A DNA stretch of 64,000 nt, taken from positions 4,118 through 68,117 of the forward strand of contig DROS01000019.1 of NCBI GenBank assembly GCA_011321815.1, written 5' to 3'. Source of the stretch: Gammaproteobacteria bacterium (GTDB lineage: Bacteria > Pseudomonadota > Gammaproteobacteria > SZUA-152). Under the pieces are notes generated by a model. The model ran no database searches. It worked only from the letters and a program-made list of their open reading frames with translations, and had not been told where the DNA came from. The position numbers and the translations under genes were made by a program. Below are positions 9,871-56,975 of the stretch, in pieces (within the stretch, counting starts at the first letter, position 1; each line of letters starts with the position of its first letter).

Positions 9871-11295
9871 ATGGCTGGCAAAACCCTTTACGACAAATTG
9901 TGGGACGCGCATGTAGTGCGTACTCAGGACGACGGTACCTGTCTGCTTTATATTGACCGGCATTTGGTACACGAGGTGACTTCGCCGCAAGCCTTTGAGG
10001 GGTTGCGTTTGGCGGGCCGCAAACCGTGGCGGGTGGATGCCAACCTTGCCACACCGGATCATAACGTACCCACCACACCACCGGAAAAGGGTGGGCGGGC
10101 GCAGGGTATCGTCGATCCTGTGGCGCGTTTGCAGGTGGAAACACTGGACAATAATTGCGATGAATTTGGCATTACCGAATTCAAAATGGATGACATCCGC
10201 CAGGGCATCGTGCACGTCATCAGCCCTGAACAGGGTGCAACGTTGCCGGGCATGACCCTGGTGTGTGGTGATTCGCATACCTCTACCCATGGTGCATTGG
10301 GTGCGCTGGCGCACGGTATTGGCACTTCCGAGGTGGAGCATGTATTGGCCACGCAATGCCTGATTCAGCGCAAGTCAAAAAACATGTTGGTGAGCATTGA
10401 TGGTGCGGTAGGCCCAGGTGTGACGGCCAAAGACATCGTACTGGCCATCATCGGCAGGATCGGCACCGCAGGTGGCACCGGTTATGCCATCGAATTTGGT
10501 GGTGAAGGTATTCGTGATCTTTCCATTGAGGGCCGCATGACCGTGTGCAACATGGCCATTGAAGGTGGTGCGCGTGCGGGCATGGTGGCCGTGGATCAAA
10601 AGACGATTGATTATGTGAAGGGGCGTCCCTATGCGCCGACAGGGGGATTATGGGAGGCAGCGGTGAGCGCATGGCATGAATTGCATTCGGATGACGACGC
10701 ACAGTTTGATCATGTGGTGCGTATTAATGGTGCGGATATTCAGCCGCAGATCACCTGGGGAACATCACCGGAAATGGTGGTTCCTGTGGATGGCCGGGTG
10801 CCTGATCCGGCACAGGAAAGTGATGCGGTAAAAGCGGATGGTATGCAGGCCGCGCTGGCTTACATGGGGCTGGAAGCCAATACGCCGATTAACGAAATCA
10901 GTATTGATAAAGCCTTCATCGGTTCCTGTACCAACTCGCGTATTGAAGATTTGCGTGCGGCAGCCATGGTCGCCAAAGGACGCAAGGTGGCGGACAACGT
11001 GAAGCTGGCCATGGTGGTGCCGGGTTCCGGCTTGGTGAAAGCACAAGCGGAAAAAGAAGGTCTTGATAAGATTTTTACCGATGCCGGTTTTGAATGGCGC
11101 GAGCCGGGTTGCTCCATGTGTCTGGCCATGAATGCCGACAGACTGGAACCGGGTGAGCGTTGTGCCTCCACCTCGAACCGAAACTTTGAAGGGCGGCAGG
11201 GGCAGGGGGGACGCACGCATCTGGTGAGCCCGGCCATGGCAGCAGCGGCAGCGGTTATGGGGCATTTTGTGGATGTAAGAGGACTTGATATTTAA
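9871..11295 (+). CDS. leuC: 3-isopropylmalate dehydratase large subunit.
   Basis: This is the aconitase-family LeuC. The N-terminus is [16 protein letters not shown], the protein is 474 aa, and leuD and leuB follow. Confidence 0.95.
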
Positions 11296-11393
11296 CGCAA
11301 AGGGCGCAGAAGCGCAAAGGACGCAAAGATTTTATTGTTTTAGAGTCTTTTCTTAGCGTACTTTGCGTCTTTGCGAGCTTGCGTTTCTAACGC
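11293..11393. repeat. Intergenic palindromic element, copy a (leuC-leuD spacer). The left arm is TAACGCAAAGGGCGCAGAAGCGCAAAGGACGCAAAG. The right arm is CTTTGCGTCTTTGCGAGCTTGCGTTTCTAACGC.
   Basis: The imperfect ~34-bp inverted arms are visible in the sequence. The element belongs to the same family as copies b and c. Confidence 0.6.
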
Positions 11394-11405
11394 GGAGTTT
11401 GAACA

Positions 11406-12041
11406 ATGGAAAAATTTTCGAAAATAACAGGCATCGTGGCACCCATGGATCGTTCCAACGTGGATACCGATGCCATTATTCCCAAACAGTTTTTGAAGTC
11501 CATCAAGCGTTCGGGGTTTGGTCCCAACCTGTTTGATGAGTGGCGCTATCTTGATCATGGTGAGCCGGGTATGGATAACAGTATTCGGCCATTGAACCCG
11601 GACTTTGTGCTCAACCAGCCGCGTTATCAGGGAGCGAGCATTTTATTGGCGCGAGAGAATTTTGGCTGTGGCTCCTCGCGCGAACATGCTCCTTGGGCAT
11701 TGCTTGATTACGGCTTTCGCGTCATCATCGCGCCTGGTTACGCGGACATTTTTTTCAACAACTGTTTCAAGAACGGTATTCTGCCCATTGTGCTTGATGC
11801 ACAGGTAGTGGACAGATTATTTCAGGCTGTGGCGGCTAACGAGGGCTATGCGTTAGGTGTTGACCTTGAAGCGCAGACCATCATCACGCCGGATGGCAAG
11901 AACATTACTTTTGATGTGGAAGAATTTCGTAAACATTGTTTGTTGAACGGGCTGGATGATATTGGGCTGACTTTGCAACATGTGAACGACATTCGTGCTT
12001 ATGAGGCACGGCGTAGTGCAGAAGCGCCGTGGTTGTTTTGA
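11406..12041 (+). CDS. leuD: 3-isopropylmalate dehydratase small subunit.
   Basis: The protein is 211 aa and matches the LeuD family. It sits between leuC and leuB. Confidence 0.95.
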
Positions 12042-12051
12042 AAAGAGTATA

Positions 12052-12144
12052 TAAACGCAGAGGATACGGGGGCGCAGAGACGCAAGGTTTTTTTGAATTG
12101 CTTTCTCTGTGCCTCCGTGTCTCTGCGGTCTCTGCGTTAAATAC
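12052..12144. repeat. Intergenic palindromic element, copy b (leuD-leuB spacer). It uses CGCAGAG / CTCTGCG arms in place of CGCAAAG / CTTTGCG. Its ends are TAAACGCAG... and ...TGCGTTAAATAC.
   Basis: Visible in the sequence. The arm substitutions are compensatory and preserve pairing. Confidence 0.6.
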
Positions 12145-12157
12145 TGGAGTTGGATAA

Positions 12158-13225
12158 ATGAAAAAGATTGCAATTTTACCTGGTGATGGTATCGGCCCCG
12201 AGATTGTTGCTGAAGCAGTAAAGGTGCTGGAGTGTTTGCGTGCCGATGGTCTTGATATCGAAATGAATGAAGCTCCTGTCGGTGGTGCCGGTTACGAAGC
12301 CAGCGGCAAGCCATTACCCGATGATACGCTGGCGCTGGCCAAAGAGGCCGATGCAATTCTGCTGGGCGCGGTGGGTGGTTATCAGTGGGAATCACTGGAC
12401 ATCAGTGTACGTCCAGAAAAAGGACTGCTGGGTTTGCGGTCAGAGCTGGAGCTGTTTTCCAACCTGCGTCCTGCAATTCTTTACAAACAGTTGGCCGATG
12501 CCTCCACACTGAAGCCGGAAGTGGTTGCCGGACTGGACATTATGATCGTACGTGAACTCACCGGCGGTATTTATTTTGGTCAACCGCGTGGTGTGCGTAC
12601 TCTCGATAACGGTGAGAGACAGGGTTTTAACACGCTGGTTTATTCCGAGTCCGAGATCGAACGCATCGGACGCTCTGCTTTTGATATCGCCATGAAACGC
12701 GGCAAAAAAATCTGTTCTGTGGACAAGGCCAATGTGTTGGAATGCACGGAACTGTGGCGTGACGTGATGGAACATGTGGCCAAAGACTATCCCGAAGTGG
12801 CGTTGTCACACATGTATGTGGACAACGCGGCAATGCAGCTGGTGCGCGCCCCCAAACAATTTGATGTGATGGTCACCACCAACATGTTTGGGGATATTCT
12901 TTCTGATTGCGCCGCCATGTTGACGGGGTCTATTGGTATGCTGCCCTCGGCCTCGTTGGATGCCAATGGCAAAGGTATGTATGAACCCATTCATGGTTCG
13001 GCTCCCGATATTGCCGGGCAGAACGTGGCTAATCCACTGGCGACGATTTTATCCGTGGCGATGATGCTACGTTATTCACTGAATGAAAGTGCGATGGCAG
13101 ACCGTATTGAAAAAGCCGTTGAAAGTGTGTTGGATCAGGGGTTGCGTACGGCAGATATTTACAGTGATGGCATGCAAAAAGTGAGCACCAGTGAAATGGG
13201 CGATGCAGTCGTATCGGCTTTATAA
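12158..13225 (+). CDS. leuB: 3-isopropylmalate dehydrogenase.
   Basis: The N-terminus [17 protein letters not shown] and a length of 355 aa fit LeuB. Confidence 0.95.
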
Positions 13226-13237
13226 AGCGCGATGTTG

Positions 13238-13330
13238 TAAACGCAAAGGACGCTGAGACGCAAAGAACACAAAGTTTTTTGTTCTTTTTCTTTGCGCCCT
13301 CTGCGCCTTTGCGAACTTTGCGTTAAATAC
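13238..13330. repeat. Intergenic palindromic element, copy c (leuB-asd spacer). Its ends are TAAACGCAAAGGACGCTGAGACGCAAAG and CTTTGCGCCCTCTGCGCCTTTGCGAACTTTGCGTTAAATAC.
   Basis: Visible in the sequence. It shares termini with copies a and b. Confidence 0.6.
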
Positions 13331-13360
13331 TCAATATCAAAAAAAGCAGGTAATGGAAAA

Positions 13361-14473
13361 ATGAAAAAAGTCGGATTAATCGGTTGGCGCGGCATGGTGG
13401 GTTCAGTGCTCATGCAACGTATGCGCGATGAGAAAGATTTTGACCTCATCGAGCCGGTGTTTTTTACCACGTCACAAACCGGACAACCAGGCCCGGACAT
13501 CGGTAAAGATGTACCGTTATTAAAGGATGCAAAATCCATTAATGAGCTGCAAGCAATGGATGTCATCATTACCTGTCAGGGCGGCGGTTATACTGAAGAT
13601 ATCTATCCGCAGTTACGCAAGGCGGGGTGGGGGGGGTACTGGATTGATGCCGCTTCTACGCTGCGCATGAAAGATGATGCCATTATTGTGCTTGATCCGG
13701 TGAATCTCGATGTTATCAAAAACGGCCTGGCCAACGGCACTAAAACCTTTGTCGGTGGCAACTGCACTGTAAGCCTGATGTTAATGGCCATTGGCGGGCT
13801 GTTTGAAAATGATCTGGTGGAATGGATTTCACCCATGACTTATCAGGCGGCTTCTGGTGCTGGCGCGCAGAACATGCGGGAACTGATCCGGCAGATGGGT
13901 GCGATCAATGATTCGGTCAAAGACCTTAACGAAGACCCTGCTGCCGTAATACTGGACATCGACAAAACACTGGCCGGTTTTTTGCGTTCTGACAACTACC
14001 CCAAAGACAACTGGGGAGTGCCGTTGGCGGGCAGTCTGATCCCCTGGCTGGACTCCCCGCTGGACAGTGGTCAGACCCGCGAGGAATGGAAAGCCGAGGT
14101 GGAGACCAACAAAATTCTTGGCCGTACTGATAACGTCATTCCCGTCGACGGTATCTGTGTGCGTATTGGCGCCATGCGTTGCCACAGCCAGGCATTGACC
14201 ATCAAATTGAAGAAAGATGCACCACTGGATGAAATTTATCATATGCTGGCACAGGCAAACGATTGGGTGAAAGTCGTACCCAATGATCGTGAGGCCACGG
14301 TGAAAGATCTGACTCCTGCCGCCGTTACCGGTACGTTGACAGTACCCGTGGGGCGGTTGCGCAAACTCACCATGGGTAATGATTATCTATCTGCCTTTAC
14401 GGTGGGCGATCAGTTGTTATGGGGTGCAGCGGAACCTTTACGTCGTATGTTGCGGCTGTTGTTGGCAACATGA
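13361..14473 (+). CDS. asd: Aspartate-semialdehyde dehydrogenase.
   Basis: The N-terminus [21 protein letters not shown] matches Asd, and the protein is about 371 aa from the ATG at 13361. The ORF track starts earlier, inside the repeat element. Confidence 0.9.
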
Positions 14474-18346: not shown

Positions 18347-18601
18347 TGCAGCGCGAGTACTTGCAGGATTCAGATTGAAATGTGAATCAAGGACTGAAAA
18401 TGCTCCAGCCAAAAACCGGAAAAACCAACACAGAGGCGCGAAGGTGCGAAGGATGCCATGTTTTTTTAAGGCTAAATTCCAAAAAGTCTTTTAGATTCGG
18501 TGCCATAGGCGTTCGCAGTAGATTCAACTGCGGTTTTTAGGTTTAAGTTTAGCTGGGGGAGTTTCACATTCAGCGTTTGATTCATATTAAAATACATCCC
18601 C

Positions 18602-20810: not shown

Positions 20811-20893
20811 GGACCGTGCGCGTGCCTGAATGGGTATGTTTGCTCAAGGCCGGTGTAATAAATGCAAAGAACGCAAAGAAAAAATTATTTTGT

Positions 20894-22153: not shown

Positions 22154-22320
22154 ATTTGATTTTAAGTAATTACCCAGCCTGTTTTTTTAGAAGTGTGTAA
22201 CACTATCAGGCTGAGTGTTATAAACGCAAAGCCAGCGGATTACAAAATAACTTCTTGATTTGTATTTAAAAATTCAGACGGAGTTACGACTTTATAGTCA
22301 TTTATTTGATTGGGAAAAAC

Positions 22321-31201: not shown

Positions 31202-31330
31202 CCGCAAAGGGCAATAGAGAAAAACTTGACGGAGTGGGCTGGTTTTACTAGTCTGCAATCTAACGCGCCGATTTGAGATCAGCTTGCGGGCGCGAAATAA
31301 ATACGGCTAAAGCGAGGTGATGAGTTTAAT

Positions 31331-48035: not shown

Positions 48036-48197
48036 GCCTGCTTGTTTCGAGGTTGTGGTAAAAATGAGCCCGGTGCACACAGGATATGTGCTGGTGTTAA
48101 CGCAGAGGTACAGAGGACACGGAGAAAGTCATTTGAGTAATGCCTGTTATTACCGTAGGTTTAACGGATTAACTCAAACTGTAAAGAAGGTGTTTGG

Positions 48198-56441: not shown

Positions 56442-56975
56442 TTGCAATATCGACGGACTGATATCGCGGGTGGAACCTATTTTTTCACCGTAAATTTGGC
56501 AGAACGGAAACGCACATTATTGATCGATCAGGTAAACGTATTACGTAAGGCGATTAAGAAGGTCAAACAAAAACATCCATTTGTCATTGATGCCATGGTT
56601 GTGCTTCCTGATCATTTACATATGTTATGGACTTTGCCGCAGGGGGATCATGATTACCCGACACGCTTAATGTTGATTAAGGCAGGTTTTTCTCGATTGA
56701 TTGAAAAGGGCGAGTATCGTAATGCCAGTCGGCAGGCAAAAGGCGAGCGAGGAATTTGGCAACGACGATATTGGGAGCACCTGATTCGGGATGAGCGGGA
56801 TTACGCCAATCATGTGGATTACATTCATTATAATCCGGTGAAGCATGGGCATGTGGAACAGGCGTCAACCTGGCAGTATTCGAGTATTCATCGTTACATC
56901 CGGGCTGGGTTGATAGAGCGAGATTGGGGTGGAGGCAAGGGTGTGCCCGAAAGTGGCGGATTTGGTGAGCGATGA
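56442..56975 (+). mobile_element. REP-associated tyrosine transposase (RAYT; IS200/IS605 TnpA-like).
   Basis: The HUH motif is PDHLHML, the catalytic Tyr region is YIHYNPVKHG, and the protein is ~177 aa. It is flanked by inverted REP sequences and inserted between parE and parC. Confidence 0.8.

What the first reader, a model, noticed from the sequence alone, without database searches (positions are those of the whole stretch)
11293..13330. Family of ~95-bp palindromic elements in every spacer of the leu operon, with compensatory arm substitutions
Copies occupy 11293-11393, 12052-12144 and 13238-13330. They share the termini TAAACGCA... and ...TGCGTTAAATAC and have long imperfect inverted arms built of CGCAAAG/CTTTGCG heptads. 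Copy b instead carries CGCAGAG on the left and CTCTGCG on the right. The change occurs on both arms and maintains pairing, which implies selection on a hairpin (RNA or cruciform) rather than on primary sequence. Half-elements occur upstream of trpB (20863-20887, AAATGCAAAGAACGCAAAGAAAAAA) and between trpB and trpA (~22214-22228, TAAACGCAAAGCC). A possible degenerate copy follows purF (~31202-31225). Each full copy abuts a stop codon and sits just before the next RBS. The copies may therefore be intercistronic mRNA-stability or processing elements, or a MITE/REP-like family unrelated to the RAYT found further downstream in this window.
Basis: seen in the sequence. Interest (0 to 1): 0.6.

Follow-up and report, generated by a model that had tools for sequence, protein, structure and literature searches.

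The report
Heptad-built hairpin repeats in leu operon
The three ~95-base palindromes between the leucine-biosynthesis genes are real. They are small, gene-less copies of a dispersed hairpin repeat found in many bacterial phyla, and in other genomes the same arms enclose a small nuclease-like gene wedged between operon genes.

Summary
Observation confirmed. Three imperfect palindromes fill the leuC-leuD, leuD-leuB and leuB-asd spacers. Each arm is AAC plus about four purine-rich heptads (CGCARAG) spaced 2-1-2 nt.

They are not specific to the leu operon. The same architecture, with heptad variants CACAGAG, CACGGAG and CGCCAAG, occurs in more than 119 genome stretches from Gamma- and Betaproteobacteria, Planctomycetota, Acidobacteriota, Gemmatimonadota, Verrucomicrobiota and Bacteroidota. 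A close relative (LeuD 91% identical) has an empty leuC-leuD spacer and an extra copy after asd. That genome also carries at least six dispersed near-identical copies.

In 9-10 of 11 independently sampled loci, inverted heptad arrays flank a promoter-less 125-aa GxxExxY (PD-(D/E)XK) gene. That gene lies in the sense orientation inside operons such as trpE-trpG, fabD-fabG and V-ATPase B-D.

The "compensatory substitution" argument fails as stated. Partner heptads are no more alike than non-partner heptads of the same element, and the spacers between heptads are only about 50% complementary.

Best reading: MITE-like, gene-less derivatives of a hairpin-bounded cassette family, co-transcribed with the operon. 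No Rfam family and no paper in the searchable library describes them. The mobility mechanism and any RNA-level role remain inferred.

The parts
11294..11385 (.). Copy a, in the leuC-leuD spacer. Left arm 11294-11328 reads AAC CGCAAAG GG CGCAGAA G CGCAAAG GA CGCAAAG. The loop is T-rich. Right arm 11352-11385 has a defective outer unit, CTTGCG. The leuC stop codon TAA (11293-11295) overlaps the element end. The ends suggest an inverted orientation relative to b and c.
12053..12139 (.). Copy b, in the leuD-leuB spacer, with CGCAGAG/CTCTGCG-type heptads. Left arm 12053-12087, right arm 12105-12139. Outer flanks GAGTAT/ATACT extend the stem to 12046-12145.
13239..13325 (.). Copy c, in the leuB-asd spacer. 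It is a canonical element with 4+4 units and 2-1-2 spacing. Left arm 13239-13274, loop 13275-13289, right arm 13290-13325.
22219..22231 (+). Truncated element end (GTTATAAACGCAAAG) between trpB and trpA, with part of the lineage-specific 'head' upstream. No right arm is present.
20866..20878 (+). Two-unit remnant (TGCAAAG AA CGCAAAG followed by an A-run) just after a stop codon upstream of trpB. No partner arm. Weak.
48098..48124 (+). Lone three-unit purine arm (TAACGCAGAG GT ACAGAGG A CACGGAG). No partner arm is visible in the 136 nt read downstream (to 48260).
   Evidence: (D11)
18425..18451 (+). Lone three-unit arm (CAAC ACAGAG G CGCGAAG GT GCGAAG), about 80 nt downstream of the fimV-like gene's terminator-like hairpin.
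9871..14473 (+). Host operon leuC (9871-11295), leuD (11406-12041), leuB (12158-13225) and asd (13361-14473). The three elements lie in its spacers.

Best explanation
The three elements are gene-less (miniature) members of a widespread family of intergenic 'heptad-array hairpin' elements.

Anatomy. An outer AAC is followed by 3-4 purine-rich heptads (consensus CRCRRAG) with 2-1-2 nt spacers, then a variable loop, then the mirror-image pyrimidine arm ending in GTT. The order is purine arm, loop, pyrimidine arm on whichever strand is read.

Origin. Members are dispersed and multi-copy. They are gained and lost between close relatives. They sit mostly just after stop codons, between co-directional or convergent genes. 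In several phyla the same arms bracket a promoter-less 125-aa GxxExxY PD-(D/E)XK gene inserted in the sense orientation inside operons.

Most likely mechanism.
- The leu copies are selfish, MITE-like insertions, or decay products of such cassettes.
- They are co-transcribed with leuCDB-asd.
- They fold into a long imperfect hairpin with no terminator tail, which brings the upstream stop codon close to the next ribosome-binding site. The operon therefore tolerates them.
- An effect as a 3' stabiliser or an RNase III site would be secondary.

Shown: the anatomy, the family, its spread across phyla, the presence/absence polymorphism, dispersal within a genome, and the association with GxxExxY.

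Inferred: mobility as a unit, that GxxExxY is the mobilising nuclease, co-transcription, and any RNA-level effect.
For: Family and anatomy:
The hits lie in many phyla, and many are paired arms 7-150 nt apart.
- 2-1-2 is the commonest spacing.
- The purine arm comes first in 113 of 119 inverted adjacent array pairs. It also comes first in every element found in the LeuD-selected loci.

Gain and loss:
- Most of the 80 LeuD relatives have spacers of -8 to about 60 nt with no element. A scattered minority (L128, L129, L131, L132, L136, L171, L191) carry elements, and heptad types differ between the spacers of one operon.
- The relative S013_42 (LeuD 91%, LeuB 96%) has a 19-nt empty leuC-leuD spacer. 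Its leuD-leuB and leuB-asd elements have different ends. It has an extra copy after asd, where the window is empty.

Dispersal: five S013_42 contigs and one contig of a second related genome (L108) share a ~280-nt composite that includes non-heptad flanks.

Context: 73 co-directional, 25 convergent and 7 divergent. The median distance from the upstream gene end is 22 nt.

Cargo:
- GxxExxY genes (TIGR04256/PF13366, E 1e-41) sit exactly between arms at trpE-trpG in three genomes.
- Protein-selected loci show the same arrays in Rhodocyclales, Bacteroides, Bernardetia and other Bacteroidota, with one arm only in Sphingomonas.
- GxxExxY was the only real ORF found starting next to an arm.
- The protein keeps invariant D...ExK residues and is predicted to adopt a PD-(D/E)XK fold (pLDDT 94).

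Not a terminator: no T-tail and no terminator call in the spacers.
Against: - No target-site duplication or clean empty-versus-filled junction could be defined.
- No GxxExxY gene or remnant lies in the window or in any leu-spacer element. An autonomous partner in this genome is therefore unproven.
- PD-(D/E)XK proteins of this family have no demonstrated transposition or homing activity.
- The genome scan enforced part of the architecture: AAC on the outside and the 2-1 spacing.
- Spacer columns show some excess complementarity, and there is a weak sense-strand G.U bias. Some host-level RNA selection remains possible.
- MAG mis-binning could inflate the taxonomic spread, although cultured isolates also carry arms: Thiohalophilus DSM 16326, Thiohalobacter Hrh1, Chthoniobacter Ellin428, Bacteroides, Bernardetia and Sphingomonas.
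Confidence: 0.6

Rival explanations
1. Host-selected cis-acting RNA elements. The intercistronic hairpins would be maintained because they set differential mRNA stability, or act as RNase III/RNase E processing sites, within the leuCDB-asd transcript.
For: - Stable folds on the sense strand.
- Position right after stop codons and right before ribosome-binding sites.
- Slight excess of sense-strand G.U over A.C (74 against 53, p=0.08) and of sense-fold stability (37 against 24, p=0.05).
- Modest excess complementarity in spacer columns (50% against 39% shuffled; central spacer AU 13, GC 13).
- Known precedents, from my own knowledge: REP in malE-malF, and Correia elements cut by RNase III.
Against: - Absent from most relatives. 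Gained and lost between genomes with 91-96% identical Leu proteins.
- The same spacer holds elements with different heptads and different ends in different lineages.
- Copy a appears inverted.
- Copy c folds better on the antisense strand, -46.4 against -36.6 kcal/mol.
- No pair-specific covariation in the heptads.
- The same family lies between convergent genes and around an unrelated ORF in other phyla.
Confidence: 0.15
2. Arrays of binding sites for a sequence-specific protein. This could be the GxxExxY protein itself, a host nucleoid or repair factor, or the 30S subunit binding Shine-Dalgarno-like AGAGG/GGAGG/AAAGG motifs. Under this reading the hairpin potential is a by-product of two inverted arrays.
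For: - Heptad positions are about 90% conserved, whereas the spacers vary in sequence but are mostly of fixed length (2-1-2).
- Heptads are homogeneous within an element whatever their pairing partner.
- The purine-first bias (113 against 6) is something pairing alone does not require.
- In cassettes, the GxxExxY start codon follows the last heptad by 0-3 nt in the proteobacterial examples, so the arm must supply the ribosome-binding site.
Against: - Different heptad types coexist in one operon or genome (L132 has CGCAAAG and CACAGAG; L129 has CACGGAG and GACGAGG). That would need several specificities.
- No candidate protein is encoded nearby in the window.
- This is not exclusive of the mobile-element reading.
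Confidence: 0.15
3. Integron attC-like recombination sites (lone attC or CALIN-type sites). The leu genes would then look like cassettes.
For: Several copies end in YYYAAC...GTTRRR-like sequences, for example ATTTAAC in copy a and GTTAAAT in copies b and c. They are 57-141-nt imperfect palindromes lying after ORFs.
Against: - The flanked genes are syntenic housekeeping genes that are present without any element in most relatives.
- There is no cassette array.
- ORF cargo lies between the arms, not beside a single attC.
- The internal heptad architecture is unlike the R/L boxes of attC.
- I did not search the window for an integrase gene.
Confidence: 0.02

Closest known systems
REP/BIME elements and their RAYT transposases (Enterobacteria, Pseudomonas)
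   Same: Short imperfect palindromes, extragenic, often inside operons or at 3' ends, multi-copy, co-transcribed. They can stabilise upstream mRNA.
   Different: These arms have no GTAG head. They are 35-nt arrays of spaced heptads rather than a single 20-40-nt palindrome. They are not associated with the RAYT in this window, which has its own distinct repeats. The ORF they associate with is a PD-(D/E)XK protein, not a Y1 HUH transposase.
MITEs such as Neisseria Correia elements (CREE), ERIC and RUP
   Same: About 100-nt elements with terminal inverted repeats, non-coding, inserted in intergenic and co-transcribed regions, with presence/absence polymorphism. For Correia elements, RNase III processing of the hairpin is known (from my own knowledge).
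   Different: No sequence similarity. No target-site duplication was found. The larger relatives carry no DDE or other known transposase. The spread across phyla is unusual for a MITE family.
23S rRNA intervening sequences (IVS) with an internal small ORF (S23p / four-helix-bundle protein; Coxiella, Leptospira; PMC4990558)
   Same: A selfish insertion bounded by a long stem, sitting in a highly transcribed RNA, with an optional small promoter-less ORF in the loop. ORF-less versions exist.
   Different: The location is mRNA spacers, not rRNA helices 25 and 45. The ORF family is GxxExxY (PF13366), not PF05635. Excision by RNase III has not been shown here.
Heptamer tandem repeats: cyanobacterial STRR, and TAACTGA direct repeats of Beggiatoaceae (PMC4679880)
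   Same: Intergenic arrays of a 7-nt unit with a patchy distribution across phyla, often close to start or stop codons. A post-transcriptional role has been proposed.
   Different: Those are contiguous direct repeats. Here the units are separated by 1-2 nt spacers and always arranged as two inverted arrays. The unit sequence is unrelated.
Integron attC sites
   Same: Imperfect palindromes of similar length after ORFs, with AAC...GTT-like outer cores.
   Different: No integrase context or cassette array is evident. The cargo lies inside the palindrome. The internal organisation is different.

Membership tests
REP/BIME (RAYT-associated) | Conserved 5' GTAG (or similar) head on a 20-40-nt imperfect palindrome | tested here: not met
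   The arms start WAAC + CGCARAG and contain no GTAG. The window's true REP-like repeats (GTAGGTTGGGGTGAGG...) are a different sequence (I2).
REP/BIME (RAYT-associated) | A cognate RAYT gene flanked by the same repeats | tested here: not met
   The RAYT at 56442-56975 (PF01797) is flanked by unrelated 30-nt inverted repeats.
REP/BIME (RAYT-associated) | Extragenic, multi-copy, dispersed | tested here: met
   Three full copies and four remnants in the window. At least five dispersed near-identical copies in relative S013_42 and one more in a second related genome.
MITE | Terminal inverted repeats, small size, no coding capacity | tested here: met
   35-nt inverted arms, 87-100 nt in total, no ORF.
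MITE | Target-site duplication | tested here: inconclusive
   The filled-versus-empty comparison of the window with L115 gives no clean junction. The flanks are themselves palindromic.
MITE | A longer autonomous element with the same ends that encodes the transposase | tested here: inconclusive
   Longer relatives with the same arms encode GxxExxY, but that protein is not a known transposase. None was found in the window or in the leu-spacer elements.
23S rRNA IVS-type element | Insertion in 23S rRNA helix 25 or 45 | tested here: not met
   These elements lie in mRNA spacers. Rfam found no rRNA in the window.
23S rRNA IVS-type element | Excision by RNase III at the bounding stem | not testable with these tools
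   Needs RNA end mapping, or in vitro cleavage.
Integron attC | Part of a cassette array, usually next to intI; the cassette ORF lies outside the palindrome | tested here: not met
   The flanked genes are syntenic leu genes that most relatives have without any element. The cargo ORF lies between the arms.
Intrinsic terminator | G+C-rich stem followed by a T-run | tested here: not met
   No terminator-like site was called in the three spacers. The stems are followed by AAATAC or CTAACG.
Any Rfam RNA family | Score at or above the family's gathering threshold | tested here: not met
   No hit in the window. At the E-value threshold only sub-threshold miRNA-hairpin noise appeared. No hit on the elements in 20 related loci.
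STRR / TAACTGA heptamer repeats | Contiguous direct tandem copies of one heptamer | tested here: not met
   The units are separated by 1-2 nt and arranged as inverted arrays.

The most novel reading that the evidence does not exclude
The heptad-array hairpins define a previously undescribed class of mobile element found across phyla. It would be a promoter-less cassette bounded by two inverted arrays of Shine-Dalgarno-like heptads. The cassette encodes a minimal PD-(D/E)XK nuclease (GxxExxY) and inserts immediately after stop codons inside housekeeping operons. It would also spawn miniature gene-less derivatives such as the three leu copies. This would be neither an IS or MITE with a known transposase, nor an intron, nor an integron cassette. 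It would also give the very large, uncharacterised GxxExxY family (at least 8000 hits per search) its first functional context.
Probability: 0.3. Interest if true: 0.8.

Novelty: new variant of a known kind. Interest (0 to 1): 0.62.

Why it matters
- If the link holds, it ties an abundant orphan protein family (GxxExxY / PDDEXK_3, function listed as 'Unknown' in PMC3424549) to a specific, recognisable DNA/RNA architecture.
- It also shows how small selfish genes and their miniature derivatives can colonise the tight intercistronic junctions of essential operons in many phyla.
- For annotation, these elements explain unusually long spacers in leu and trp operons.
- For method, this case shows that matching substitutions on both arms of a repeat-built palindrome are not evidence of compensatory evolution.
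- Cultured carriers make the hypothesis directly testable: Thiohalophilus thiocyanatoxydans DSM 16326, Thiohalobacter thiocyanaticus Hrh1 and Bacteroides species.

Tried and rejected
- Rfam: gathering threshold on the window, E-value threshold on the region, and gathering on 20 related loci. Nothing relevant.
- Terminator and promoter scan: no site in the spacers.
- Pair-specific covariation, by my own partner-versus-non-partner test and by the count of structure pairs: no heptad signal beyond element-wide homogeneity.
- RNA-versus-DNA test by G.U asymmetry: borderline only.
- Between-strain divergence of spacers against coding sequence: 1.8-3.0 against 1.7-5.1 substitutions per 100 nt. Uninformative.
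- Target-site duplication from filled and empty sites: not resolvable.
- GxxExxY remnants inside compact elements or in the window, by tblastn at E<=1: none, apart from one doubtful hit in L078 at E=0.12.
- Other cargo next to arms: only spurious ORFs that read through the arms.
- Phage vectors: only 4 hits in 2.9 million viral contigs.
- PDB sequence search with GxxExxY: no hit. The fold search gives only weak matches to Cas4 and lambda-exonuclease-type proteins.
- Literature searches for GxxExxY, PF13366, TIGR04256, PF05635 and the literal arm sequences: no description of these repeats.
- attC and integron reading: rejected on context.
- Decayed IS fragments: I saw no sign of this. No ORF longer than the GxxExxY gene lies between or next to arms. 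I ran no direct transposase similarity search.
- Not done: testing whether four-helix-bundle (PF05635) genes share the same arms, because I had no seed sequence.
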